From a virus (Duplodnaviria; Heunggongvirae; Uroviricota; Caudoviricetes): DNA of 64,000 nt. A model generated the notes under the pieces. That model made no database searches, was not told the DNA's origin, and worked only from the letters and a program-made list of their open reading frames with translations. Location: IMG/VR virus record IMGVR_UViG_3300009856_000010, positions 1-64,000 of that record, one strand, 5' to 3'. Shown here one piece after another: positions 162 to 41,377 of the stretch; within the stretch, counting starts at the first letter, position 1; each line of letters opens with the position of its first letter. The position numbers and the translations under genes were made by a program.

Positions 162-3100
162 TCATTTCCTTGCGTACTGTTTAGTCATAGTACTATTCTC
201 AAAAAAACGCAAACCATTAGATGGGTCAAGGTATGTATGCAAGTCTATATATCCATTACCAGCAGACCCTGCTATAAATTGATTCAATGTTGTACCAATC
301 AAGCTTTGTTCACTTGTGATAGTAGTGCCTGAATAATTTCGTAACCGAAGCCCTGCCATTGTTCCATCGCCCATGAATGCGATTTTTATAATTTCCATAT
401 TGTTTGCATTATACATTATGAATGAATTGCTGGCCGGGTCTAACACCATTCTGACCCCATTCTTGCGTGTGGTTACCTTGCCAATAAAGTCACCAGCCAT
501 TTCAACATTTCCATTTTCATCCCAAAATATATTCCCATCGGCAAGATGTCCGCTACCTATTGCCCGGATAACATTCTTCGCATTATTCGGGGATGGGCCA
601 CCCATCCAAAAATATCCTTCGCCGTCAAAGCCACCAGTAACATTGCCTTGACTATCTTTTATTAGGAACTGATTACCTTGAACAAATTCCAGTATTGCAT
701 CTTTTGCTATAATCAGTGAAGTGAATATGGCATTCACATTCAGCCCGAATGCTTCCCAGTACTCGGCATTTCCGGGGGCGTTTGCTGTTGTGCTCGTATG
801 TGTTTTAAGACACTTATACGCCTGCCACCCCGTTTGAAGCGAATTATCCCGTACAAGTGCTATATTGATATAGCGTGTACCTGAAGTCAATGCTTCATCA
901 TTGCGGTATTCATTGTTTAATCCCCATTCTGATTTTATCATAAGGCAACCGGGAATACCATCCTTACCAGAATCACCCGTAACACAAACACCCTCTGTGC
1001 GTGTGATGTTACCATCCGTATATGTGATAACCGAACGAGCCCATATATACCAGCCGGAGGCGGAAGATGGACGTGTAGTACTCCAGCTACCATCTACCAA
1101 TAATGTGGCAGATGAAGACCTGTAATACTCTTCAATCATCGACCGTATACCTACACCATTTTCTCCATTTTCTGCGGAAAGCTCATATTCATCGGTATTT
1201 CGTTCACCGGTTAGGATATATCTCAATGTTTTACCACCATCCTGAGTTTGCAATATTCGATTACCATCTTTGTCGGTCATTGTCCAAAGTGGAGGGTTTA
1301 TTGTTCCATCCATATTCTTGCATATCCACGTTGCACCACCCATACGAACCATTCCCAGATAAGGAACCCGCAGTCCTGTAGACCAGTCTCCAATGAGAGA
1401 GACACTATCTCCATCCTTTCCTTTTTCTCCTGAAACACATATTTCCGTTGTAGTTTTTGAAGTTCCATCTGTATATGTGATAACCGAACGTGTCCAATAG
1501 TACCAGCCGTTTTTCCAGTCCGGACGATTCTCAGTCCAGCTTCCACCTGCAAGTATTTGAGGAGAAGAAGATAGATAATACTCTTCAACGATAGATTGAA
1601 TTCCTATACCATCAATACCTGTGGGTAAACAAAACGGTTCTGACTCAGTTTCTGAATTATCGGTGTACACTGTTCTGGTTTTGCTCCAGATAAATTTCCC
1701 AGTTTCCCAATCAGGTGCAGTTGTTTGCCACCCGACAGTTGGAGCAACCGTCTGGCTTGTGGAGACTGCGTATAGTACATCCGTTTCTTTCACCCCTTTC
1801 AGAATCGCTGTAGGATCAAGGAGTAAATCCCAATCTTCCGATTGAACATATTCATGAATGATATATCCCCATGTTGCATCCCCTTTCTGTTTTTGCAATA
1901 AGCGACTTCCATTTTCGTTTGTAACAAGTGGATATGGTGCTTCTGAAGTCTCTTTGTTGCTAATGAAAACCTTTCCGGCAAATGAGAGTATGGTATTCTT
2001 CGCATAAGGAGTACCTTCTGTATTCCATGCTGGGGCACTGGTTATTCCGGTCCCATCATCCCCATCCTTTCCAGGCGCAACCATTATTACCCAATCTGGA
2101 TTATCTTTATCAGGGATAGTTTTTGTTCCGTCCTCATTGATGCATAACCATACGCCACCCTCATGACTAACTTCATCATAAAAGTTCACTTCATCGCCCG
2201 ATTTCCAATTTGGTAAATAGTTCGGTAATGGCGCAGTGGTTCCATCCGGTTTAATTTGATGGATGGCACCAGTCATATAAATACTATCTAAATAAGCCGA
2301 ATAACCGGTCATGGTTTTTCCATGCACGGTCATGTTAGATAAATCACCTGTTTGCTGTGCGATATTCGCTGCACTTATCTCAAATGTGGTTTGTTTCCAC
2401 AGCATACGAGTATACGTCCTGGTTTCATATACTGAAGTCTGGCGGTCTTTGTTACTCACATTCCCATAGACAACAAAATGCATCATCTCACTCGGATGAT
2501 AGCTATGTTTCCATCTTTCACTTATGGGACGAAGATTATATTTAAACTGTTGATTTCGGTCTCCAACAACTTCAGTTATCAGGAAATAAGCAGTGTAGAA
2601 TCCAGCATACGTACGATTGCCACAACTATCGTCCATATCTTCGGTAGCGTTGATCGTTGGCTCAAGAGAGTGAAAAATACCCATACAGATATCATTCACC
2701 GCCACCGCTCCTATTTGACCATCTTGCAAATCCAAATCAACAGTACGTGTATTCATATCTATCGACTTGATAACACCGCCACCCGGGGCTCGCCACTTAT
2801 CTCCTAAACTAACTTCTACACTATTGAATATAATTTCTGGAACAACGAGTTTGCGACGAATAAAGAGAGACTCAATTTCCCCATTAGCATATTGATCAAA
2901 AAAACCACCAACTCCAGTAAATCCAGGAACAAAATCCTTTCCTATTTTGAGTCCTTTCAAAAAAGTAATTAAACCTTCTGAAATATCATCGAATAACTTG
3001 CTTAAAAAACGTTCGCCTACATATTTACTTGTTACTAATGAGGTATCGCTTACAGGAACATCCTTATCACTATCCGTACTCCTCTTTATGTCATTAATCT

Positions 3101-3644
3101 CTTTATCCCGCAAAAAGAATTTATTTACAACAAAAGATGAAAATGTTTTTAGGACCTCTATCAAGTCTGTAACCTTATTCCATCTAAACATCTGACGCCA
3201 TTCGGCACCTGTTTCTTCGTTCGCAAACTGATTCGTATTTAGAATACCAGTTTTTAAAACGTCCTCCCAGTACCGATCTACTTTAGTGCCACCGGAGTTC
3301 GCAGATGCACTAATCTTTCCTAAATAGATATAGTAATAATCACCAGAGCTTAATTCAACTTCTTCGTCTGCATAAACTACCAAAGCCTTTGTGCCTACCT
3401 TTTCCAACCTAGCATACACATACTTGGCGTCAACAGTTTCAAAATAGCTATTGAAGGCTTCCAGCGTCCACTTCCGGTAATTTCGACTGGCATCGTAGTC
3501 AATAACACCTTGTACAAATGCCATAATTACGGAACCGCCCAATACTGTCACCTGATTATAATCTGGATCTTCCAACGCGTTCAACGTAAACGTTAAAGCT
3601 GATGGAGACATCCAATAATTACTTTGAGTGGTTACAATTGCCAT
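162..3644 (-). CDS. tail fibre / receptor-binding protein (1160 aa) with an internal ~65-aa tandem domain duplication
   Basis: Largest distal ORF of the structural string with Gly/Ser/Thr/Asn-rich composition. Two copies of IEEYYxSSS..GSW..RP..GWYxWxRSVITYTDG (nt ~1000-1140 and ~1440-1590). Late-promoter motif lies immediately upstream. Confidence 0.45.
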   Translation of the reverse strand: MAIVTTQSNYWMSPSALTFTLNALEDPDYNQVTVLGGSVIMAFVQGVIDYDASRNYRKWTLEAFNSYFETVDAKYVYARLEKVGTKALVVYADEEVELSSGDYYYIYLGKISASANSGGTKVDRYWEDVLKTGILNTNQFANEETGAEWRQMFRWNKVTDLIEVLKTFSSFVVNKFFLRDKEINDIKRSTDSDKDVPVSDTSLVTSKYVGERFLSKLFDDISEGLITFLKGLKIGKDFVPGFTGVGGFFDQYANGEIESLFIRRKLVVPEIIFNSVEVSLGDKWRAPGGGVIKSIDMNTRTVDLDLQDGQIGAVAVNDICMGIFHSLEPTINATEDMDDSCGNRTYAGFYTAYFLITEVVGDRNQQFKYNLRPISERWKHSYHPSEMMHFVVYGNVSNKDRQTSVYETRTYTRMLWKQTTFEISAANIAQQTGDLSNMTVHGKTMTGYSAYLDSIYMTGAIHQIKPDGTTAPLPNYLPNWKSGDEVNFYDEVSHEGGVWLCINEDGTKTIPDKDNPDWVIMVAPGKDGDDGTGITSAPAWNTEGTPYAKNTILSFAGKVFISNKETSEAPYPLVTNENGSRLLQKQKGDATWGYIIHEYVQSEDWDLLLDPTAILKGVKETDVLYAVSTSQTVAPTVGWQTTAPDWETGKFIWSKTRTVYTDNSETESEPFCLPTGIDGIGIQSIVEEYYLSSSPQILAGGSWTENRPDWKNGWYYWTRSVITYTDGTSKTTTEICVSGEKGKDGDSVSLIGDWSTGLRVPYLGMVRMGGATWICKNMDGTINPPLWTMTDKDGNRILQTQDGGKTLRYILTGERNTDEYELSAENGENGVGIRSMIEEYYRSSSATLLVDGSWSTTRPSSASGWYIWARSVITYTDGNITRTEGVCVTGDSGKDGIPGCLMIKSEWGLNNEYRNDEALTSGTRYINIALVRDNSLQTGWQAYKCLKTHTSTTANAPGNAEYWEAFGLNVNAIFTSLIIAKDAILEFVQGNQFLIKDSQGNVTGGFDGEGYFWMGGPSPNNAKNVIRAIGSGHLADGNIFWDENGNVEMAGDFIGKVTTRKNGVRMVLDPASNSFIMYNANNMEIIKIAFMGDGTMAGLRLRNYSGTTITSEQSLIGTTLNQFIAGSAGNGYIDLHTYLDPSNGLRFFENSTMTKQYARK

Positions 3645-29224: not shown

Positions 29225-29584
29225 TTACAAAGCCCGTCCAAGGCTGATATGTTCTTTATAATATTCTTTCGGCTTACACTTAACCACGTGATAATCATAC
29301 TGATAAATGTAGCAACTATATGATACTTCACACGCAATCGCATAATTGGGGTAGATATGGCTCAGCACCGTGTCTGGATACGGATGCCCGTCGAGCCACT
29401 GTTCCAGCGTGTAATACTTCTGTGGTATTAAGGCGTGCGGATCGTCTAAGCTTTTGGTAATAGCATATAATTTATTTTTCCGCTTTTCGAGAAGATGTAT
29501 CCTTGCTCTCAGCCGCGATTCTTCGTTGCGGATGTTACACAGCAAGCGGTCTGCTCTTGATTGTTTGGATGATTCTTTTTTCAT
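29225..29584 (-). CDS. hypothetical protein
   Basis: Start placed at the internal Met (MKKESSKQ) giving ATGA coupling to the C5 methyltransferase; the longer ORF runs to 29650. Confidence 0.25.
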   Translation of the reverse strand: MKKESSKQSRADRLLCNIRNEESRLRARIHLLEKRKNKLYAITKSLDDPHALIPQKYYTLEQWLDGHPYPDTVLSHIYPNYAIACEVSYSCYIYQYDYHVVKCKPKEYYKEHISLGRAL

Positions 29585-30912
29585 GCTGCAATCCTTTCCC
29601 GCACTTCTTTCCAGAACGAAAGAATATATGCGATTACTTCTACCGTCCACCCGTTGCCTAACATCTTATATATTTGGGTATCGCTCACCACCCATTCATA
29701 CCAGGAAGGGATAGTCTGTAAGCGAGAGCATTCGAGTGGGGTAAGGCGACGGATAACACCTAATAGGCATAGCCAATTATTCTGTTCCCACGCATTGGCC
29801 GACAAAGTCGGTGCTTTATCCTCAAATAACCCACCGGTATTATTTCCACGTGGACGTTGGTAAACAGCATGTGTACCCGAACTCATATCAGCCAATAATG
29901 CAGGACAGATACCATTCTCGTCATAAATTCGGTCTTGTTGATAGGGTTGTATACCACCGCTTTGTTTGCTTGGATTGAGTTGGAGAATAAGATTGTCTTT
30001 TTGTACAGATGTAATTGTGTTCGTTTTCCCATCTGTACGAGGTTCTAATTGCTGGATGTTTTTTCTCTTTTCTTCAACTAATCCTGCCTCATACTCCTTC
30101 CTTATTTCTTTCCCATATTCGGTTCGTTTTGGAGAAAGACAGGCTGATTCTCTACCTCGCATAGCAACAGCAATATAATCTCCGCACCAATTAGTATATG
30201 ATTCACCCATCAATGGCAATGATTTTTCGCCATCAAATTGCGTATATCCTTTCTTTATCCTGAATTCCTTGGATATATACTTCATCATCTTCTCGGTATT
30301 CACATAATACTTCTCATCCACATCCTCCTCCAAAATATCCCGGAGCAACAAACCTCTATCTTTTGGTTGCGGAATATCGGTATATTCACTACTAAAGAAC
30401 CCCTCTTGATTCGTCCGGATATTACTCCAATACAGTCTATCCCTATTCTGCGCACTCACCAGGTTGCTATTGATGCGAACAGGCTTCAATCCACAATACT
30501 GTGTAATGATAGAACGATGCATCTTTTTCATATTCACATTTTCGAGCAGGAACTTGACGTTCGGATTCATGCTCCGGATATGGTTCAGAATATCAATGAA
30601 TACAAAGAACAGGCGACTGCGTGGGTCATCGAACGCCAGCTGCTTGCCGGCGAACGAAAACCCTTGGCAAGGTGATCCAGCCAAGAGCAGGTCAATAGAT
30701 GCCCAATCAATGTCCCATTCTCGCCACCGTTTCACATCGCCCAGTTGGATGGTACCCGGAAAGTTGTGCTGTGTTTGGAGTATGGCAAACTTGTCAATTT
30801 CCGAAGCATAGTACTTCTTTACGGGTACTCCGAGTAGTTTCATGGCGATTTGTCCGCAGGACATACCGTCGAAAAGGGAGAGGAGGGTGATACCGTTATT
30901 CTTTTTACTCAT
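29581..30912 (-). CDS. DNA (cytosine-5)-methyltransferase (443 aa)
   Basis: Motif I LSLFDGMSCG and motif IV GSPCQGFS (the PC motif). Confidence 0.7.
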   Translation of the reverse strand: MSKKNNGITLLSLFDGMSCGQIAMKLLGVPVKKYYASEIDKFAILQTQHNFPGTIQLGDVKRWREWDIDWASIDLLLAGSPCQGFSFAGKQLAFDDPRSRLFFVFIDILNHIRSMNPNVKFLLENVNMKKMHRSIITQYCGLKPVRINSNLVSAQNRDRLYWSNIRTNQEGFFSSEYTDIPQPKDRGLLLRDILEEDVDEKYYVNTEKMMKYISKEFRIKKGYTQFDGEKSLPLMGESYTNWCGDYIAVAMRGRESACLSPKRTEYGKEIRKEYEAGLVEEKRKNIQQLEPRTDGKTNTITSVQKDNLILQLNPSKQSGGIQPYQQDRIYDENGICPALLADMSSGTHAVYQRPRGNNTGGLFEDKAPTLSANAWEQNNWLCLLGVIRRLTPLECSRLQTIPSWYEWVVSDTQIYKMLGNGWTVEVIAYILSFWKEVRERIAA

Positions 30913-32617: not shown

Positions 32618-32721
32618 CTATAGAAAAGCGCAAATAGGACGAACCTGGCTGTAGTTGCTCTTATAGTTGCTGCTCGTATCACCATCGTACCAATTGAGCA
32701 ACCAAGAGGACGACGCTGATT
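32618..32721 (-). repeat. DGR variable repeat VR1
   Basis: Aligned to TR 34630-34733; 7/7 substitutions in the core fall at TR adenines (coding strand). Confidence 0.75.
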
Positions 32722-33394
32722 GTTCCGTAGAAGTTTCGTGCCAGCCATAGAACAGCGGGTCACCCCCGCAAATAGTGAGGGCTGCATCTATCATATTCTT
32801 ATGCTTTTGAAGGAATATCTTTTCGCCCAAAGCAGAAAGGTACCATGTACCTGCCGGTATATTTCCACAAGAATACTCATCGCAATACTTAGCGGCCGGG
32901 CTTCCTGCTGCAACCAACTGGGCAGTATTGGCCTTACCGTTCCAATCCTCTTTTGCCTGGTCGAAATCTTCGTACTGATTGGATGTTGCTATTTCCCGTG
33001 ACGGTAAGTATTGAAGTTCTTCAGGAGAAGATTTCAAAGCAATTCCATACTTTCTATCGCCTTCTACCACAGCAATACATACGGGCGTTTGGTCTTGATA
33101 GTTTAACCATTCTCCCGGACGAATGCAGTTGTTCTCCATGGTCAGGATATAAACACCGTCGGCGCAACCGGCAGGGAAAGTAGAGGGAATAAACGCTTTT
33201 AAATCAGATTCGCATACCCAACCTATATCTTTAGGTTCAAGGCATATATAATAAAGTCCTTCCATTTCATAAGAATCACCTTCTTGTTCGGCAGGCTTAA
33301 ATGCTTTTTTTATCTCTACTACTCTTCCAATCAACTCCCTGTTAGGATGATCTGCGATAATAGCCTTATCGCCTGCTTTAAATTTCAATTCCAT
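32618..33394 (-). CDS. DGR target protein 1 (258 aa), DUF1566/C-type-lectin-like variable C-terminus
   Basis: C-terminus ...SASSSWLLNWYDGDTSSNYKSNYSQVRPICAFL aligns to the TR-encoded peptide; WYLSALGE motif is typical of DUF1566. Confidence 0.7.
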   Translation of the reverse strand: MELKFKAGDKAIIADHPNRELIGRVVEIKKAFKPAEQEGDSYEMEGLYYICLEPKDIGWVCESDLKAFIPSTFPAGCADGVYILTMENNCIRPGEWLNYQDQTPVCIAVVEGDRKYGIALKSSPEELQYLPSREIATSNQYEDFDQAKEDWNGKANTAQLVAAGSPAAKYCDEYSCGNIPAGTWYLSALGEKIFLQKHKNMIDAALTICGGDPLFYGWHETSTEQSASSSWLLNWYDGDTSSNYKSNYSQVRPICAFL

Positions 33395-34863
33395 ACATTT
33401 ATTCCTTTTAAAAGTTTCTTTTTCAATATTCTGTTTTTCTTATACTTATTCTTTACGCTGATTTTCTCGAAATGTCCACTGATGTAACACACCTTCCACC
33501 AGAGCGGAGAAATGCGGCGGGCGGCCTTGCGACGGATGCCATACGTAGAAAAGTGCGACATCATCCCGAAATATGAATTCATGCAAGAGGCAAAGTATTC
33601 GGCCTGCTCGTACACATATCCTTTGTCTGCGGCAGCCAACTGGTTTAGTTCGTCAATGCGGGCATAGAAACTGTTGCGACTGCGGTTGGCCACATACGTT
33701 CTGCCGGGCTTTACCACAGCGCCGATATATTTTACACCCTTTGATACGTGTTGAAGATAAATTTTGTCCGGGTGCAATGTCAATCCCAATGTGTGCAGAT
33801 AGTTGCGAATATCTGCAACGGCCTGTTTCAAGGCTTCGCGGTTGGTACTGATGATATAGAAATCATCTACATATCGACCGTAGAACGTGAAACGGTATTT
33901 CATCAGATGATCGAACGCATTGAGGAAGAAATTGGCACTCACCTGCGAAGTCAGGTTCCCGATTGGAATGCCGTGTCCTGCCGGAGAAGTGAACAGGCTT
34001 TTCCCTACCGGGAGCTCGGCCCATGCATCGGGGTGCGACTTACGGATACAATTCCGTTCGGGTTCGTTTAGAATGGTTTCCCGCATCAGGTAGATAAGGG
34101 TGTCTCTATCCGCGCCCGTATATCGCTCGGTGATAAACGAAGCGAGCATATCGCACAACTGACTGCGGGGGATACTCATAAAGAAACTGCGGATGTCGAG
34201 TTTCAAGGCCCAGCAATCTTTTGTATAATTGGCGGAGCATTGGCGGATATGATCTTCCAACGTCCGGATACCGAAATGTGTACCCTTACCTTTGCGACAG
34301 TTGCTTGTTTCGTCAATAAACAGTTCTTCGAGCAACGGGTTGATGCGGTTGATAAGCAGATGATGTATAATGCGGTCTCGGAACGATGCAGCGAATATTT
34401 CGCGCTTCACCGGTCGGGTGATAATAAACGTAATGCTGCGCTGCGGGTGGTAGGTACGGTTGTTTATTTCCTCACACAGTTCCACGCAGTTGGCTTCGTA
34501 GTTTACCTCGAACGCCATAGCACTGACTGTGTTACGTTTATTCTTCCGGCAATCCAGATACGCCGCAATCACATCTTCCAACCGAATGGGAGAAGCAAAC
34601 AGATAATCAGGACACGTTTCTACGGTTTCCTGTAGTGAAGCGCAAATAGGACGAACCTGGTTGTTGTTGTTCTTATTGTTGTTGTTCGTATCACCATCGT
34701 TCCAATTGAGCAACCAAGAGGACGACGCTGATTCTGTTGCCGATTTCTTAGTCTTAACTCCCCCATCGCAGGAAGTAGGCAACCCTTTTCTATCAGAAAA
34801 CAGGCTCTCTTCACAACCCCGTGAGGTTATGAACGCTGGCTCTTTAGTGTTGAATTTTTCCAT
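33385..34863 (-). CDS. DGR reverse transcriptase (ORF as drawn 492 aa; true start uncertain, RT domain begins after the TR)
   Basis: Motifs PIGNLTSQ (DGR-specific) and FYGRYVDDFYII (YxDD). The ORF reads in-frame through the TR (encoding ...WLLNWNDGDTNNNNKNNNNQVRPICASL) with no ATG between the TR and the RT domain. Confidence 0.75.
   Translation of the reverse strand: MEKFNTKEPAFITSRGCEESLFSDRKGLPTSCDGGVKTKKSATESASSSWLLNWNDGDTNNNNKNNNNQVRPICASLQETVETCPDYLFASPIRLEDVIAAYLDCRKNKRNTVSAMAFEVNYEANCVELCEEINNRTYHPQRSITFIITRPVKREIFAASFRDRIIHHLLINRINPLLEELFIDETSNCRKGKGTHFGIRTLEDHIRQCSANYTKDCWALKLDIRSFFMSIPRSQLCDMLASFITERYTGADRDTLIYLMRETILNEPERNCIRKSHPDAWAELPVGKSLFTSPAGHGIPIGNLTSQVSANFFLNAFDHLMKYRFTFYGRYVDDFYIISTNREALKQAVADIRNYLHTLGLTLHPDKIYLQHVSKGVKYIGAVVKPGRTYVANRSRNSFYARIDELNQLAAADKGYVYEQAEYFASCMNSYFGMMSHFSTYGIRRKAARRISPLWWKVCYISGHFEKISVKNKYKKNRILKKKLLKGINVWN
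34630..34733 (-). repeat. DGR template repeat (TR), adenine-rich AAC-codon tract
   Basis: Plus strand reads CTGGTTGTTGTTGTTCTTATTGTTGTTGTTCG, i.e. an (AAC)n Asn-codon tract on the coding strand; invariant in itself, variable in VR1 and VR2. Confidence 0.75.
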
Positions 34864-35183
34864 CCTGATATCTGTTTGCCTATTTTAGTTGTCAGCTCGG
34901 CCAATTCGGCAGCCTGACTGATTGTTATAATTTTCTTGTCCGTACACAGCCGGATAAGTGTTTTCAGTAACTCAAACTTTACCTGAAACCCTTCGAGGTA
35001 CATTGCTCTATTTGCCACATAAGTGTTAGCCAGATGAATGTATTCGAATAAATCCAGCGATACGGTTTCTATCTTCTGCCCGAAAGTATGTTTACGCGAA
35101 CGTGGGAACTGCATGGTGAGGTCTGTTATCAGACTCACCAATCTGTATGTTTCGCGATATACAGGCAGTTCCGACGTTGACAT
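34827..35183 (-). CDS. avd: accessory variability determinant Avd (118 aa)
   Basis: Four-helix-bundle family pattern LPVYRETYRL...FPRSRKHTFGQKIETVSLDLFEYIHLAN; located between target and TR as in canonical DGRs. Confidence 0.65.
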   Translation of the reverse strand: MSTSELPVYRETYRLVSLITDLTMQFPRSRKHTFGQKIETVSLDLFEYIHLANTYVANRAMYLEGFQVKFELLKTLIRLCTDKKIITISQAAELAELTTKIGKQISGWKNSTLKSQRS

Positions 35184-35213: not shown

Positions 35214-35316
35214 TTATAGAAAAGCGCAAATAGGACGAACCTGGAAGTAGTAGAACTCATTGGTGCAGAACGTATCACCATCGTAACAACTGAGCAACCA
35301 AGAGGACGACGCTGAG
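35214..35316 (-). repeat. DGR variable repeat VR2
   Basis: Aligned to the TR; 14/15 substitutions fall at TR adenines. Confidence 0.75.
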
Positions 35317-36149
35317 TATTCCGTAGAAGACCAGATACCTCGCCAGTCCAGTGGCTTCCCTCCGCAAATGGTAAGGGATGCATCTATCATGTCCTTGTGC
35401 TTTTGCATGAATACGAGTTCGCCAAGGGATGGCAGGTACCAGTGCATACATGGCATACCCGGAGTGCTATATTTAGCACAGAACTGTGCTGCGGGAGATT
35501 TGTCTTCTAACAGATATTTGAAATGAGTAATGCCCGCAAAATCTATCTTAGCTTCAAATTGACTGGAAAATGCTTTGCTTAACACTTTGTTGGTATTATC
35601 ACTAAATTTCATAGATTCTTCGGAACCGGTCAGGGCAATAATTCGTTTCGTGTCGCCTTCGATGACGGCGATACCGACAGGTGTTAGTTTCTTATGACTG
35701 AACCATGCATCGGGGCGTATACATCTTTTGTTGGATGTTAGGATGTAAACCCCGTCGGGGGCTTCTTTATAATGAAAATTGGATTTTAGTTCGTCCAAAC
35801 TCTTGTTTATGTCTTTGAAAATTCCGGAGTAAAACAATCCAGACCATAATGAGTCTAAATCATCCGTTCCAACTATCTCAAGCGAATACTTTGGTTTCGA
35901 CAAATCAAATGAAATTTGAAAACCTTCTTTATTCCGTTCTGGAGTAATAATATACCCTTTCTCTTCAAGTAGCTGTCGCACAGAAGGTGCGAGTGTATCT
36001 ACATGAAAATATTCATGGTCTTCTTTTATAGCATCTGCTACGAACGTTGGAAGTTCTTTTAATAGATGTTCGCTTCGGTTGTTGAGAAGCATATTATAAG
36101 CTTCTCTTGCTGTAATTAGTTTCATGTTTAATCTTATTTTATAATTCAT
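35214..36149 (-). CDS. DGR target protein 2 (311 aa), DUF1566/C-type-lectin-like
   Basis: C-terminus ...SASSSWLLSCYDGDTFCTNEFYYFQVRPICAFL; HWYLPSLGELVFM motif; paralogous to target 1 over the C-terminal ~150 aa. Confidence 0.7.
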   Translation of the reverse strand: MNYKIRLNMKLITAREAYNMLLNNRSEHLLKELPTFVADAIKEDHEYFHVDTLAPSVRQLLEEKGYIITPERNKEGFQISFDLSKPKYSLEIVGTDDLDSLWSGLFYSGIFKDINKSLDELKSNFHYKEAPDGVYILTSNKRCIRPDAWFSHKKLTPVGIAVIEGDTKRIIALTGSEESMKFSDNTNKVLSKAFSSQFEAKIDFAGITHFKYLLEDKSPAAQFCAKYSTPGMPCMHWYLPSLGELVFMQKHKDMIDASLTICGGKPLDWRGIWSSTEYSASSSWLLSCYDGDTFCTNEFYYFQVRPICAFL

Positions 36150-36474: not shown

Positions 36475-37220
36475 TCTTTTACCAATTTATAATCATACAC
36501 CCACATCCACGGATTACTATCCCATGTACCTTTGCCATTGATTTTATCAAAGAGTGCCGCGTATGCTTTTTGCGGTGTTTCTTTAAGCGAAAAATACGAA
36601 CTGTATGCCAACTGCGGGGTTTCGCTAAGCGATAAACGTAAACTGTTAGACATCACTAAGCCCCATAACGATAAATCAGATTTAGAACCGTCTGGCATAT
36701 TTGCTCCCAAACACGTGACACCTTGGCTAATACCTTCCTTTATGCAATCTTCTTCAGATATATCCTGCAACCGTTCCGGACGAACACCCGTTATCTCAAT
36801 GAAGAACCGGGCAGCCTTGGCTGGCATAAAGAGTTTGTTAGACCAATGCTTAAAATCTTCGGGAAGAAACTGCAAAGACTGACCAATAATGCCACCAACC
36901 TGAAACCGGTACAGATACTGTGGAACTCCGTCTTTATCACCCAAATAGTAATAAGGTTCTTTGAGGTATATCCTCTCTCCTACCCTGTATTTGGGTTTGA
37001 ACTCTTTATGTGTTCCCGTCTCTGCCGACGTACCCCAAAAGCCTTGCATGTCGCTATCGACAGACATGGGGAAACGAGTGTGGTCGTGCAATCCGTCTGC
37101 GTCCGGCTGCTCGGACATAGTGCGACGGGTTTGATTTTTTATCTCTTCTATGTTGAGATGAAAAAGGGGTGGGATAAAACAGATGCCTTTCATACTTAAT
37201 TCTGTATCACAATTATACAA
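36471..37220 (-). CDS. hypothetical protein (249 aa)
   Basis: ORF overlapping the methyltransferase gene start; no firm motif. Confidence 0.3.
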   Translation of the reverse strand: MYNCDTELSMKGICFIPPLFHLNIEEIKNQTRRTMSEQPDADGLHDHTRFPMSVDSDMQGFWGTSAETGTHKEFKPKYRVGERIYLKEPYYYLGDKDGVPQYLYRFQVGGIIGQSLQFLPEDFKHWSNKLFMPAKAARFFIEITGVRPERLQDISEEDCIKEGISQGVTCLGANMPDGSKSDLSLWGLVMSNSLRLSLSETPQLAYSSYFSLKETPQKAYAALFDKINGKGTWDSNPWMWVYDYKLVKE

Positions 37221-37927
37221 GTCTCCACCATTGTTCCAGATTCCTTAAACTCTCCGCGGTCCACATCATACACATCGGCTTCTACTTTCTCAATCCATTC
37301 GCAGAACAGGCGTTCTTTCTTGCCCTCGGCAAACTGCCAGTGTTTGGATGCAATAGTCACAAGCCTTCCACCGGGTTTAAGGCACTCAAACATTTTACGG
37401 ATATGGTCTATATCCTGATTCTTTGCAAAAGGCGGATTGGCAACGATTACATCAAAAAAAGTGTTACACTCTGCAAGGAAGTCGGATCCCAATAGTTTGA
37501 AATGGTCTATTTTTGCAAGGAAAGATTGGTTGATATCCATTATCTCGTATCCAAATACATCCATTGCGGGAAACTCACGGTGAATGGCGTTCACTATTGC
37601 GCCACGTCCCGCACTGGGTTCCAGCACAATATCTTTGTTTTTAATCTCGGACAGCTCTACCAAATAGTCGGCCAAACTGTCGGGTGTGGCAAAGAATTGG
37701 TACTCTTTCTTCAGGTTTCGGTCTTCGGATGCGGTTATTTGTGCCAGCAAATCAGTAGGATCAGTAGGGAAAACAAAACCTTGTGTATTACCACCTTTCC
37801 ATTTTCCGCCGATAAATTCGAGTTGCTTTTTTATTTCGAGGTATTGTTTACGGTCTAATTGCACGGTGGGCAACTGAATGATGTTGCCGGATATGGTGCA
37901 TTGTTTTAGGATTTCGGTTGTTGTCAT
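37196..37927 (-). CDS. DNA methyltransferase, amino-methyltransferase type (N6A or N4C), 243 aa
   Basis: Motif I LEPSAGRGAI and motif IV VIVANPPF. Confidence 0.6.
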   Translation of the reverse strand: MTTTEILKQCTISGNIIQLPTVQLDRKQYLEIKKQLEFIGGKWKGGNTQGFVFPTDPTDLLAQITASEDRNLKKEYQFFATPDSLADYLVELSEIKNKDIVLEPSAGRGAIVNAIHREFPAMDVFGYEIMDINQSFLAKIDHFKLLGSDFLAECNTFFDVIVANPPFAKNQDIDHIRKMFECLKPGGRLVTIASKHWQFAEGKKERLFCEWIEKVEADVYDVDRGEFKESGTMVETCIIVIQN

Positions 37928-40243: not shown

Positions 40244-41377
40244 TTAATCGTTCACCATCATCGGCATGAGCAACAATAGCATGGTATCATCGCCCTCTGC
40301 TTCGGTCATAATGCAAGCCCGTGAGGGATCGAAGAATGATAGCGTTACCTGTTCACTCTGCGCTGTATCGAGCAGCGTATTGAGGAATGTTCCTTTAAAG
40401 GCGATACGCAGCGCATCAGTAGCGTTGTGCGTGCCCGGCATGGTTTCTTCGCCGCTCATGGAGAAGTCATAGTCGTGGGCGGATAGTTTCAACGCTTCGC
40501 CTCCGGATAGGAGTTCCAGCACTACCTGACTGCTTGCTTTGTTCGACATGGATAGTACGCGCCGCAGGGCATCTTTCATCAACTTGCGGTCTGCCGTGAG
40601 GTGGATGTGGTTATCTGCCGGTATTACGCCGTTGTAGTTAGGGTACCGACCCTCTATCTGCGTACAGCTCAGGGTATAACCCTCGCCCTCTATCCGTACC
40701 CGGCGACTGTCTACGGTGAGTTTCACTTCTTCGCTCCGGGGCAGAACTTTCAGGATGTTTACGGTTTTGTGGGGCAGGATGAATCCGCCACGCTCAGCAA
40801 ACGGCAAATCGGGATGCCGACGGCGAATCAGCTTATGCCCATCGCTTGCTGCCAGCGTCAATCCATCGGGTTGCATATCTACATAGATGCCGTTCATTAC
40901 CGGGCGCAGCTCGTCATCGGCTACGTAGGGCAGGGCGCGGGTACATCCGTCCATCAGGATAGACCAGGGCATGGAAGCGCGTAGGGCGGTATCCTGCATG
41001 TCTACCTCGCCGGGGTACTCAATGGGGTCGATGGCCATAAAGGTGAATCGTCCTTGCTGGTAGCGCACTTCAACTTCCAGGTTGTTGGGGTTGATGTCGA
41101 ACGTCAGGGGTTGTTCGGGCATAGCGGATAGCATGTCCGACAGGGCTTTGGCGGGCAGGCAAAAGGCATCCATGCCGGTAGGATTGTCCTGAAGGTCAAT
41201 ATTGATCTGCATGGAGAGGTGGTTTTCCAAGTCGGATGCGGTGAACGTCCAGCGGCCTTCACCGTCCTGGCTAAACTTTACGGTGTCCAGTATGGGCAAC
41301 GTATTCTTGGGACTGATTACTTTGGCTGCTGTGGCCAATGCTCCGCGCATAGCGGAGGTGGATATTACGAATTTCAT
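40244..41377 (-). CDS. dnaN: DNA polymerase III beta subunit (sliding clamp) homologue (377 aa)
   Basis: N-terminus MKFVISTSAMRGALATAAKVISPKNTLPILDTVKF..., size and three-domain length typical of DnaN. Confidence 0.6.
   Translation of the reverse strand: MKFVISTSAMRGALATAAKVISPKNTLPILDTVKFSQDGEGRWTFTASDLENHLSMQINIDLQDNPTGMDAFCLPAKALSDMLSAMPEQPLTFDINPNNLEVEVRYQQGRFTFMAIDPIEYPGEVDMQDTALRASMPWSILMDGCTRALPYVADDELRPVMNGIYVDMQPDGLTLAASDGHKLIRRRHPDLPFAERGGFILPHKTVNILKVLPRSEEVKLTVDSRRVRIEGEGYTLSCTQIEGRYPNYNGVIPADNHIHLTADRKLMKDALRRVLSMSNKASSQVVLELLSGGEALKLSAHDYDFSMSGEETMPGTHNATDALRIAFKGTFLNTLLDTAQSEQVTLSFFDPSRACIMTEAEGDDTMLLLLMPMMVND

What the first reader, a model, noticed from the sequence alone, without database searches (positions are those of the whole stretch)
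34600..34863. TR is embedded in-frame in the 5' end of the RT ORF with no ATG before the RT domain
The long RT ORF begins at 34863 and translates through the TR, giving ...SASSSWLLNWNDGDTNNNNKNNNNQVRPICASLQETVE. There is no ATG between the TR and the first RT motif, so either the RT uses a non-ATG start downstream of the TR or it is made with a TR-encoded N-terminal extension. The 3' 20 bp of the repeats (GCGCAAATAGGACGAACCTGG) are identical in TR, VR1 and VR2. The next ~10 bp differ: TR has CTGTAGTGAA where VR1/VR2 have CTATAGAAAA, an IMH/IMH*-like distinction that would set homing directionality.
Basis: seen in the sequence. Interest (0 to 1): 0.5.

Follow-up and report, generated by a model that had tools for sequence, protein, structure and literature searches.

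The report
Template repeat inside phage RT gene
In this phage's diversity-generating retroelement, the template repeat lies in frame inside the reverse-transcriptase reading frame and the enzyme has no ATG of its own, so it is probably translated from a start inside the upstream avd gene with a floppy, template-encoded leader; this layout has been catalogued before, but nobody has tested how such an enzyme is translated.

Summary
On the minus strand lies a complete phage DGR: target 1/VR1, bAvd, TR (34638-34731), RT and target 2/VR2.

- **The ORF.** The 492-codon RT ORF (34863-33385) reads the TR in the VR frame. The VR stop (TAA/TAG) is CAG in the TR.
- **Possible starts.** The only canonical in-frame starts between the TR and the invariant N-terminal motif (Y102, R106) are TTG 34581 and GTG 34572. 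The next ATG (M116) lies after that motif.
- **Family picture (about 155 related DGRs).** The TR always abuts the RT start, but most RTs have their own ATG after the TR. In-frame TRs are not clearly enriched (44/35/29). The fused ORF is therefore a lineage feature, not a family rule.
- **Evidence for ATG 34863 as the start.**
  - It has a native-like start context, and TTG/GTG do not.
  - The closest relative has no canonical start after its TR.
  - Four relatives keep the frame despite linker indels.
  - AlphaFold begins the fold upstream of L95.
- **The leader.** Residues 1-83 are predicted disordered. Their apparent conservation comes from a covarying RNA structure upstream of the TR.

I put about 0.55 on the ATG 34863 start and about 0.3 on a TTG/GTG start. 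The architecture class is known as DiGReF "group 3". Interest is modest.

The parts
35214..36149 (-). DGR target gene 1 (311 aa), with VR1 at its 3' end
   Evidence: ORF list. Weak Pfam Lcl_C match at aa 219-307, E 0.004.
35222..35315 (-). VR1
   Evidence: Aligns to the TR core at an offset of +584. It has 15 differences: 14 at TR adenines and one G->T.
34827..35183 (-). avd (bAvd-like accessory protein, 118 aa)
   Evidence: Pfam bAvd, E 3.3e-19. C-terminal motif IGKQISGW is shared across the family.
34861..34863 (-). ATG of the long RT ORF. It is formed by the Avd codons GGA-TGG (Gly-Trp) and lies 37 nt inside avd. This is the favoured RT start.
   Evidence: Start-context score is 4.35, the 58th percentile of 50 other gene starts and above 98% of internal ATGs. 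Local folding energy is -4.2 kcal/mol, against -4.4 +/- 2.9 for true starts. The same ATG is present in L001-L004.
34736..34833 (-). Structured RNA between the avd stop and the TR: four helices, the first spanning the avd stop codon
   Evidence: In the 5-sequence alignment A3, 92% of cells are paired, against 35-57% when partners are slid. Seven pairs carry compensatory changes, against 0-2 in the slid controls. The motif AAAAGGG-YUGCC...GGCAR recurs in other Bacteroidota DGRs.
34638..34731 (-). Template repeat (TR) core: 94 nt with 28 adenines, codons 45-76 of the RT ORF, read in the VR frame
34630..34637 (-). IMH*-like boundary. The TR has CACTACAG where the VRs have TTCTATAA or TTCTATAG. 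The VR stop codon is CAG here.
34582..34629 (-). Linker (codons 79-94, ETVETCPDYLFASPIR). It contains no ATG, GTG or TTG.
   Evidence: Linker lengths in relatives differ from the window by 0, 24 and 6 nt in the fused loci and by 2 nt in the unfused L004. AlphaFold confidence rises from residue 84 and is about 95 from residue 91.
34570..34581 (-). Alternative non-ATG start candidates: TTG 34581-34579 (L95) and GTG 34572-34570 (V98)
   Evidence: Context scores are -3.86 and -4.86, typical of internal codons. Local folding energies are -14.8 and -15.2 kcal/mol.
33385..34581 (-). Conserved DGR reverse-transcriptase body, from L95 to the stop codon
   Evidence: Pfam RVT_1, E 4e-24. 6655 homologues at E <= 1e-20. 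Invariant residues Y102, R106 and the YVDD motif. AlphaFold mean pLDDT 83.6, and above 90 from residue 91.
32618..33394 (-). DGR target gene 2 (258 aa), with VR2 at its 3' end. Its start overlaps the RT stop by 10 nt.
32626..32719 (-). VR2
   Evidence: Offset of -2012 from the TR. Seven differences, all at TR adenines.

Best explanation
**What it is (shown).** This is the avd-TR-RT junction of a phage-borne diversity-generating retroelement. In this RT family the TR always sits directly in front of the RT start. In the window's small clade the RT has no ATG of its own. A linker that contains no stop codon joins the TR in frame to the RT, and the VR stop codon reads CAG in the TR.

**How it most likely works (inferred).** Ribosomes start at ATG 34863, 37 nt before the avd stop, possibly coupled to avd translation. 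They read through the structured RNA upstream of the TR, then the TR, then the linker. The product is a 492-aa RT whose first ~85 residues form a disordered leader. That leader contains an unmutated 31-32-aa copy of the targets' C-terminal peptide.

The leader is probably a tolerated by-product rather than a functional domain. The same RNA segment serves both as coding sequence and as the template and scaffold for cDNA synthesis.
For: 1. **Start context.** ATG 34863 scores like a real start of this phage and lies in weakly structured RNA. TTG 34581, GTG 34572 and ATG 34518 score like internal codons and sit in strong local structure.
2. **Closest relative.** L001 (RT 67-70% identical) has no ATG, GTG or TTG between the 3' end of its TR and the conserved motif. 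Its only ATG is the same avd-embedded one.
3. **Frame kept despite indels.** WIN, L001, L002 and L003 keep TR and RT in frame with no stop, although their linkers are unalignable and differ by 24 and 6 nt. L004, which differs by 2 nt, has its own ATG.
4. **Fold begins upstream of L95.** AlphaFold models residues ~86-94 as part of the fold (about 95 pLDDT from residue 91). Homologues with a clear ATG start 10-26 residues before Y102, further upstream than L95 (7 residues before) or V98 (4 before).
5. **Other lineages.** RTs without a post-TR ATG are enriched for frames open through the TR (8/15 against 35/140, Fisher p = 0.025). After removing near-duplicates p is 0.04-0.13.
6. **An active example.** In the L144 clade the long ORF starts at an ATGA overlap with the avd stop, behind a GGAG. 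Four genomes about 95% identical carry different VRs at adenine sites.
7. **The RT worked recently.** VR differences are adenine-specific and the catalytic motifs are intact.
8. **No internal signals.** No promoter-like or terminator-like site lies between avd and RT.
Against: - There are no expression data.
- Most family members start the RT after the TR. In-frame TRs are not significantly enriched (44/35/29; 23/17/13 at 70% dereplication). TR-frame ORFs across the avd-TR spacer are no commoner than in a control frame (7/40 each).
- The good context of ATG 34863 is partly forced by the conserved Avd motif IGKQISGW. An A before that Trp codon occurs in 23 of 62 dereplicated relatives, usually opening only a short ORF.
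- L003 also has an ATG just after its TR.
- L164 has a GAGGAG-GTG at -4, so very short N-termini may be viable.
- The leader shows no protein-level constraint.
- Ribosome traffic through the TR could conflict with its use as a template.
- The association test is marginal after dereplication.
Confidence: 0.55

Rival explanations
1. The RT starts at a non-ATG codon just after the TR: TTG 34581 (L95, giving 398 aa) or GTG 34572 (V98). The open frame upstream, through the TR to ATG 34863, would then be an untranslated accident. The TR is open in the VR frame by construction, and the spacer is frozen by RNA-structure constraints.
For: - Both codons are in frame, 7 and 4 codons before Y102.
- GTG or TTG demonstrably replace the canonical ATG in other family members with closed upstream frames (L006, L036, L024, L159, L062).
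- L164 has GAGGAG 4 nt before a GTG at -4.
- The in-frame relation is near chance across the family, and the leader is disordered and unconstrained as protein.
- A product of 398 aa matches typical homologue lengths of 385-425 aa.
Against: - Context scores are -3.9 and -4.9 (12th and 6th percentile of true starts). Local structure is -14.8 and -15.2 kcal/mol, stronger than the average internal codon.
- These codons are not conserved. L001 has none at all, and L002 has GTG at -9 and -4.
- Such a start would remove residues 86-94, which AlphaFold places in the fold and which homologues possess.
- The 'MEDV...' precedents (P0049, P0066) are gene-caller picks. An in-frame ATG lies 17 codons upstream of each.
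Confidence: 0.3
2. Neither canonical model holds. Three variants are possible.
1. The avd-embedded ATG opens an upstream ORF whose translation through the TR mainly melts RNA structure or delivers ribosomes. The RT is then initiated at a near-cognate codon or by re-initiation.
2. Initiation occurs inside the TR (TTG 34713).
3. The RT is no longer expressed and the element is decaying.
For: - In the unfused relatives L004 and L238, an ORF from the same avd-embedded ATG runs through the TR. It stops 11 nt after, or 7 nt before, the RT's own ATG.
- In L236 a 94-aa ORF over the TR ends 20 nt before the RT ATG.
- VR1 carries one non-adenine change.
Against: - There is no family-wide excess of TR-spanning ORFs.
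- In L239 and L240 the ORF from that ATG is only 7 codons long.
- TTG 34713 has the worst context of all candidates, -8.7.
- The RT ORF is intact over 492 codons with all invariant residues, and 21 of 22 VR changes are at adenines.
Confidence: 0.15

Closest known systems
DiGReF 'group 3' DGR architecture (Schillinger et al. 2012, PMC3521204)
   Same: [quoted passage not shown] This locus fits that definition exactly.
   Different: The class is purely descriptive and rests on annotated ORFs. No claim was made about where translation starts or whether the overlap is real. Here I add frame statistics, start-context scoring and comparison of relatives.
Bordetella phage BPP-1 DGR (avd-TR-spacer-brt)
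   Same: - Same gene order and a bAvd partner.
- Adenine-specific TR-to-VR differences.
- An identical block at the 3' end of TR and VR, followed by a few mismatches (IMH/IMH*-like).
- Structured RNA is required or conserved upstream of the TR (PMC6182149; 10.1101/2023.10.23.563531).
   Different: BPP-1 has a 144-nt non-coding spacer between TR and brt. That spacer provides the priming site and the Avd-binding elements. Here only 57 nt separate the TR core from L95, all of it open reading frame. Any equivalent RNA elements must therefore overlap RT coding sequence. None could be shown with 5 sequences.
Bacteroides pilus-associated DGRs and Bacteroides uniformis phage DGRs (10.1101/2024.11.15.621889; PMC8143477)
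   Same: The RTs are related (42-55% identity). They share the avd-TR-RT order, the upstream motif AAAAGGG-YUGCC...GGCAR, and a TR that abuts the RT.
   Different: Those RTs have their own ATG (MVLQQSLF...) after the TR. The TR-spanning ORF is separate and stops before the RT ATG.
Overlapping, translationally coupled phage genes
   Same: The start codon lies inside the 3' end of the upstream gene. Other gene pairs in this phage overlap by 4-17 nt. The L144 clade uses a classic ATGA overlap.
   Different: A 37-nt overlap is the longest in this window. Coupling is inferred, not shown.

Membership tests
Diversity-generating retroelement (DGR) | Reverse transcriptase of the DGR clade with intact catalytic motifs | tested here: met
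   Pfam RVT_1, E 4e-24. YVDD, GNLTSQ and the residues invariant in 60 homologues are present. The nearest relatives all sit in avd-TR-RT cassettes.
Diversity-generating retroelement (DGR) | A TR/VR repeat pair whose differences fall at TR adenines | tested here: met
   VR1 has 14 of 15 differences at TR adenines and VR2 has 7 of 7, within a 94-nt core.
Diversity-generating retroelement (DGR) | VR at the 3' end of a target gene that encodes a C-type-lectin-like variable domain | tested here: inconclusive
   Both VRs end at the target stop codons. The fold is supported only by a weak Lcl_C match for target 1, E 0.004. The targets' structures were not modelled.
Diversity-generating retroelement (DGR) | Avd-type accessory protein next to the TR | tested here: met
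   Pfam bAvd, E 3.3e-19.
Diversity-generating retroelement (DGR) | An IMH (VR) / IMH* (TR) distinction that makes transfer one-directional | not testable with these tools
   The sequence pattern is compatible: 21 identical bp, then 3 mismatches in 8 nt. Function needs a retrohoming assay.
[quoted passage not shown] | TR coordinates fall inside the called RT ORF | tested here: met
   The TR (34638-34731) lies within ORF 33385-34863. A public gene call, P0001, is this same 492-aa protein.
BPP-1-type organisation (non-coding spacer between TR and RT) | A non-coding spacer of roughly 140 nt carrying the priming and Avd-binding RNA elements | tested here: not met
   The TR core ends 57 nt before L95 and 75 nt before Y102, with no stop codon between. 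Across the family the TR ends 42-161 nt before Y102. No conserved structure after the TR was detectable in 5 relatives.
RT translated with a TR-encoded N-terminal extension | Initiation upstream of the TR, and a protein product that contains the TR-encoded peptide | not testable with these tools
   Only indirect support: start context, relatives and the AlphaFold model.

The most novel reading that the evidence does not exclude
In several independent DGR lineages (this clade, the L144 clade, and probably L015, L040 and L074), the RT has given up its own start codon. It is then translated obligatorily through its own template repeat, from a start at or inside the end of avd. Ribosome passage through the TR and its flanking scaffold RNA would make RT synthesis and template use mutually exclusive on one transcript. 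That is a built-in switch or autoregulatory loop, because RT-Avd binding next to the start could shut off further translation. Every RT molecule would also carry a copy of the unmutated variable peptide.
Probability: 0.4. Interest if true: 0.55.

Novelty: new member of a known kind. Interest (0 to 1): 0.33.

Why it matters
**Annotation.** RT gene calls in this large Bacteroidota and phage DGR family are inconsistent.
- About a fifth of the 120 listed homologues run into the TR.
- Some are clipped at a TTG.
- TR-spanning ORFs are called as separate 'Lcl_C' proteins.

Knowing which starts are real cleans up protein databases and DGR catalogues.

**Mechanism.** If the RT really is translated through its template, the same RNA has to serve alternately as messenger and as template or scaffold. 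This gives a simple, testable handle on how DGR activity is limited. It also matters for anyone rebuilding compact Bacteroides-type DGRs as mutagenesis tools, because trimming the supposedly non-coding region between avd and the RT would remove the start codon.

Tried and rejected
- **Family-wide selection for an in-frame TR: rejected.** The frame relation is 44/35/29, and 12/12/8 at 60% dereplication.
- **Family-wide conserved ORF from the avd end through the TR: rejected.** The TR frame is open across the spacer in 7/40 loci, the same as the control frame.
- **Protein-level conservation of the leader ('KGLPTS..GVKTK'): rejected.** It is explained by four covarying RNA helices. The compensatory changes alter the amino acids freely.
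- **'MEDVFEAY' homologues as precedent for a start at L95: rejected.** They are TTG picks by a gene caller behind a GGAGG, with an in-frame ATG 17 codons upstream.
- **Homology of the linker (LQET...YLF) to canonical N-termini (M-x-LQETLF):** the alignment is ambiguous, so I did not use it.
- **Conserved RNA structure after the TR (Avd-binding hairpin, stop duplex):**
  - The single-sequence fold predicts a long-range duplex enclosing the TR, but the fold is no better than shuffles (z = -0.59).
  - The 5-sequence consensus is negligible, -1.66 kcal/mol.
- **No hits or nothing closer:**
  - Rfam has no match in the region.
  - Megablast against phage records finds nothing.
  - The metagenome scan found no relatives closer than 49%.
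- **Internal promoter between TR and RT:** none, either sigma-70-type or Bacteroides-type. These scans are weak evidence.
- **GTG at the 'V' of xVRPV as a start behind the A-rich tract:** present in L001, L040 and L164, but the window has GTT there and the context score is only -2.9.

Full report
**1. What is in the sequence**

The minus strand between 32618 and 36149 carries a complete DGR:

| Part | Coordinates (-) | Note |
|---|---|---|
| Target gene 1 | 35214-36149 | VR1 at 35222-35315 |
| avd | 34827-35183 | Pfam bAvd, E 3e-19 |
| TR core | 34638-34731 | 94 nt, 28 adenines |
| RT ORF | 33385-34863 | 492 codons; RVT_1 at aa 155-382 |
| Target gene 2 | 32618-33394 | VR2 at 32626-32719 |

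- VR1 differs from the TR at 15 positions, 14 of them TR adenines. VR2 differs at 7 positions, all adenines.
- The window is a phage genome, with tape measure, tail fibre, head protease and sliding clamp.

**2. The observation**

The RT ORF starts at ATG 34863, 37 nt before the avd stop. It reads the TR in the VR frame as SASSSWLLNWNDGDTNNNNKNNNNQVRPICAS.

Just past the identical 3' block, the VR stop codon (TAA in VR1, TAG in VR2) is CAG in the TR. The frame therefore runs on.

The in-frame canonical start codons in the first 130 codons are:

| Codon | Position | Location |
|---|---|---|
| ATG (M1) | 34863 | inside avd |
| TTG (L28) | 34782 | avd-TR spacer |
| TTG (L51) | 34713 | inside the TR |
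| TTG (L95) | 34581 | after the TR |
| GTG (V98) | 34572 | after the TR |
| ATG (M116) | 34518 | after the N-terminal motif |
| GTG (V127) | 34485 | after the N-terminal motif |

M116 lies after Y102 and R106, which are invariant in 60 homologues, so it is not a credible start.

**3. The family picture**

I collected the four closest loci (L001-L004) and about 230 further related loci. A TR/VR pair with adenine-biased mismatches was found next to the RT in 155 of them.

- **The TR abuts the RT.** It always ends 42-161 nt before the codon aligned to Y102. This contrasts with the 144-nt non-coding spacer of the Bordetella phage element (PMC6182149).
- **Frame relation is near chance.** TR (VR frame) against RT frame is 44/35/29. 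After dereplication it is 23/17/13 at 70% and 12/12/8 at 60%.
- **Most loci have their own start.** The RT frame is closed by a stop within or just after the TR, and an ATG lies 10-26 codons before Y102.
- **No general TR-spanning ORF.** A TR-frame ORF across the avd-TR spacer is no commoner than in a control frame, 7/40 each.

A TR-spanning RT ORF is therefore not a family rule. Many such gene calls are over-extensions: about a fifth of the 120 listed homologues, some carrying a spurious Lcl_C domain.

**4. This clade is different**

- The closest relatives L001, L002 and L003 (RT 55-70% identical) share the long ORF from the same avd-embedded ATG.
- L001 has no ATG, GTG or TTG between the 3' end of its TR and the conserved motif.
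- The linkers between TR and RT cannot be aligned. Measured between the same two fixed alignment points, the region is 130 nt in the window, 130 in L001, 106 in L002 and 124 in L003. The differences are all multiples of three. L004, at 128 nt, is out of frame and has its own ATG (MSPYKKILLEDVF).
- The next-closest relatives (L237-L240) also have their own ATG and an out-of-frame TR.

*Other lineages.* Loci with no ATG after the TR are enriched for frames open through the TR. The counts are 8/15 against 35/140, Fisher p = 0.025, and p = 0.04-0.13 after dereplication.

| Lineage | What it shows |
|---|---|
| L015 | CAG sits at the position of the canonical ATG |
| L040, L074 | No ATG after the TR |
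| L164 | Also has GAGGAG followed by GTG at -4 |
| L144 clade | Long ORF starts at an ATGA overlap with the avd stop, behind GGAG |

In the L144 clade, four genomes about 95% identical carry different VRs at adenine sites. That element is therefore active.

**5. Which start in the window?**

I built a start-context matrix from 50 other long ORFs of the window, scored leave-one-out. I also computed a 63-nt local folding energy for each site.

| Site | Context score | Local folding (kcal/mol) |
|---|---|---|
| True starts (reference) | 2.65 +/- 4.36 | -4.4 +/- 2.9 |
| Internal ATGs / start-type codons (reference) | about -4 +/- 3.9 | -10.8 +/- 3.8 |
| ATG 34863 | 4.35 | -4.2 |
| TTG 34581 | -3.86 | -14.8 |
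| GTG 34572 | -4.86 | -15.2 |
| ATG 34518 | -1.69 | -12.6 |

ATG 34863 sits at the 58th percentile of true starts and above 98% of decoys.

A caveat applies. That context is partly dictated by the conserved Avd motif IGKQISGW. An A before the Trp codon occurs in 23 of 62 dereplicated relatives, where the resulting ORF is usually only 5-75 codons long.

AlphaFold on a 60-sequence alignment gave a mean pLDDT of 83.6:
- Residues 1-83 are below 50.
- Confidence is intermediate for 84-90, with a helix at 86-89.
- It is about 95 from residue 91.

The folded protein therefore begins upstream of L95.

No promoter-like or terminator-like site lies between avd and RT.

**6. The leader is not a conserved protein**

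The apparent conservation upstream of the TR ('KGLPTS..GVKTK') is at the RNA level. Four helices lie between the avd stop and the TR (34736-34833). They are 92% paired across five relatives, with seven compensatory pairs. Slid controls give 35-57% paired and 0-2 compensatory pairs.

A related motif occurs upstream of the TR in other Bacteroidota DGRs. This fits the requirement for upstream RNA in the Bordetella system.

Downstream elements, such as an Avd-binding hairpin or a stop duplex, would have to overlap RT coding sequence. They could not be demonstrated.

**7. Conclusion**

- **Best explanation (about 0.55).** The RT is translated from ATG 34863, probably coupled to avd. It carries a disordered leader of about 85 residues that includes the TR-encoded peptide as a tolerated by-product.
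- **Main rival (about 0.3).** Initiation at TTG 34581 or GTG 34572.
- **Remainder (about 0.15).** An upstream-ORF or re-initiation scheme, or an inactive RT. The first is hinted at by L004, L238 and L236, where the TR-spanning ORF ends from 20 nt before to 11 nt after the RT ATG.

The IMH/IMH* reading is compatible with the sequence but cannot be tested here.

**8. Relation to what is known**

[quoted passage not shown] 2012 (PMC3521204). That paper offers no functional interpretation. Two full-text searches with DGR, template-repeat, overlap, RT-ORF and start-codon terms turned up no paper on where such RTs start.

The locus is a new member of a known kind. The new element is only the inference, still unproven, that in some lineages the overlap is real and obligatory.

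Noticed in passing
window 34736-34833 (-): The avd-TR spacer folds into four helices with compensatory changes across five relatives. The first helix spans the avd stop codon. The motif AAAAGGG-YUGCC..hairpin..AAGAC.AAG..GGCAR recurs upstream of the TR in other Bacteroidota DGRs (L039, L060, L076, L086, L191, L235, L236). It has no Rfam family.
   Followed up: partly
L144, L147, L149, L151 (IMG/VR phage contigs); in L144 the ATG is at about 2898-2900: This is a separate RT clade, 36-38% identical to the window RT. The TR is in frame and there is no ATG after it. The long ORF starts at an ATGA overlap with the avd stop, behind GGAG. Four genomes about 95% identical have different VRs at adenine sites, so the element is active.
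   Followed up: partly
L004 about 376-650; L238 about 290-520; L236 2146-2430: In relatives whose RT has its own ATG, an ORF from the avd 3' end still runs through the TR. It stops 11 nt after the RT ATG in L004, 7 nt before it in L238 and 20 nt before it in L236. This could be translational coupling, or it could be inherited chance.
   Followed up: partly
L236 2146-2430 and 2501; L235 795: Public gene calls in Bacteroides pilus-type DGRs list the TR-spanning ORF as a 94-aa 'Lcl_C' protein. They also start the RT at a TTG behind GGAGG, although an in-frame ATG (MVLQQSLF) lies 17 codons upstream. One such RT cluster has 2085 member sequences, so the mis-call is widespread.
   Followed up: yes
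window 35286 (VR1 position matching TR 34702): VR1 carries one G->T difference from the TR that is not at an adenine, next to an adenine substitution. All other 21 VR differences are at adenines.
   Followed up: no
window 33385-33394 (-): The RT stop overlaps the start of target gene 2 by 10 nt. The cassette has two paralogous targets flanking avd-TR-RT, with a further 93-nt repeat (74% identical) upstream of the VRs.
   Followed up: no
window 29581-30912, 37196-37927, 40244-41377 (-): The DGR sits among DNA-metabolism genes (two DNA methyltransferase-like ORFs and a sliding clamp), not next to the tail-fibre genes at 162-3644. Its two targets are small proteins of 258 and 311 aa of unknown role.
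   Followed up: no
L015 about 2970; L096 about 2970-3024: In L015, CAG sits at the position of the canonical ATG of MQLSLF, and there is no ATG in 94 open codons. In L096, the RT frame is closed 19 codons before Y102 and contains no ATG, GTG or TTG. Both need an unusual start, or they are defective.
   Followed up: no
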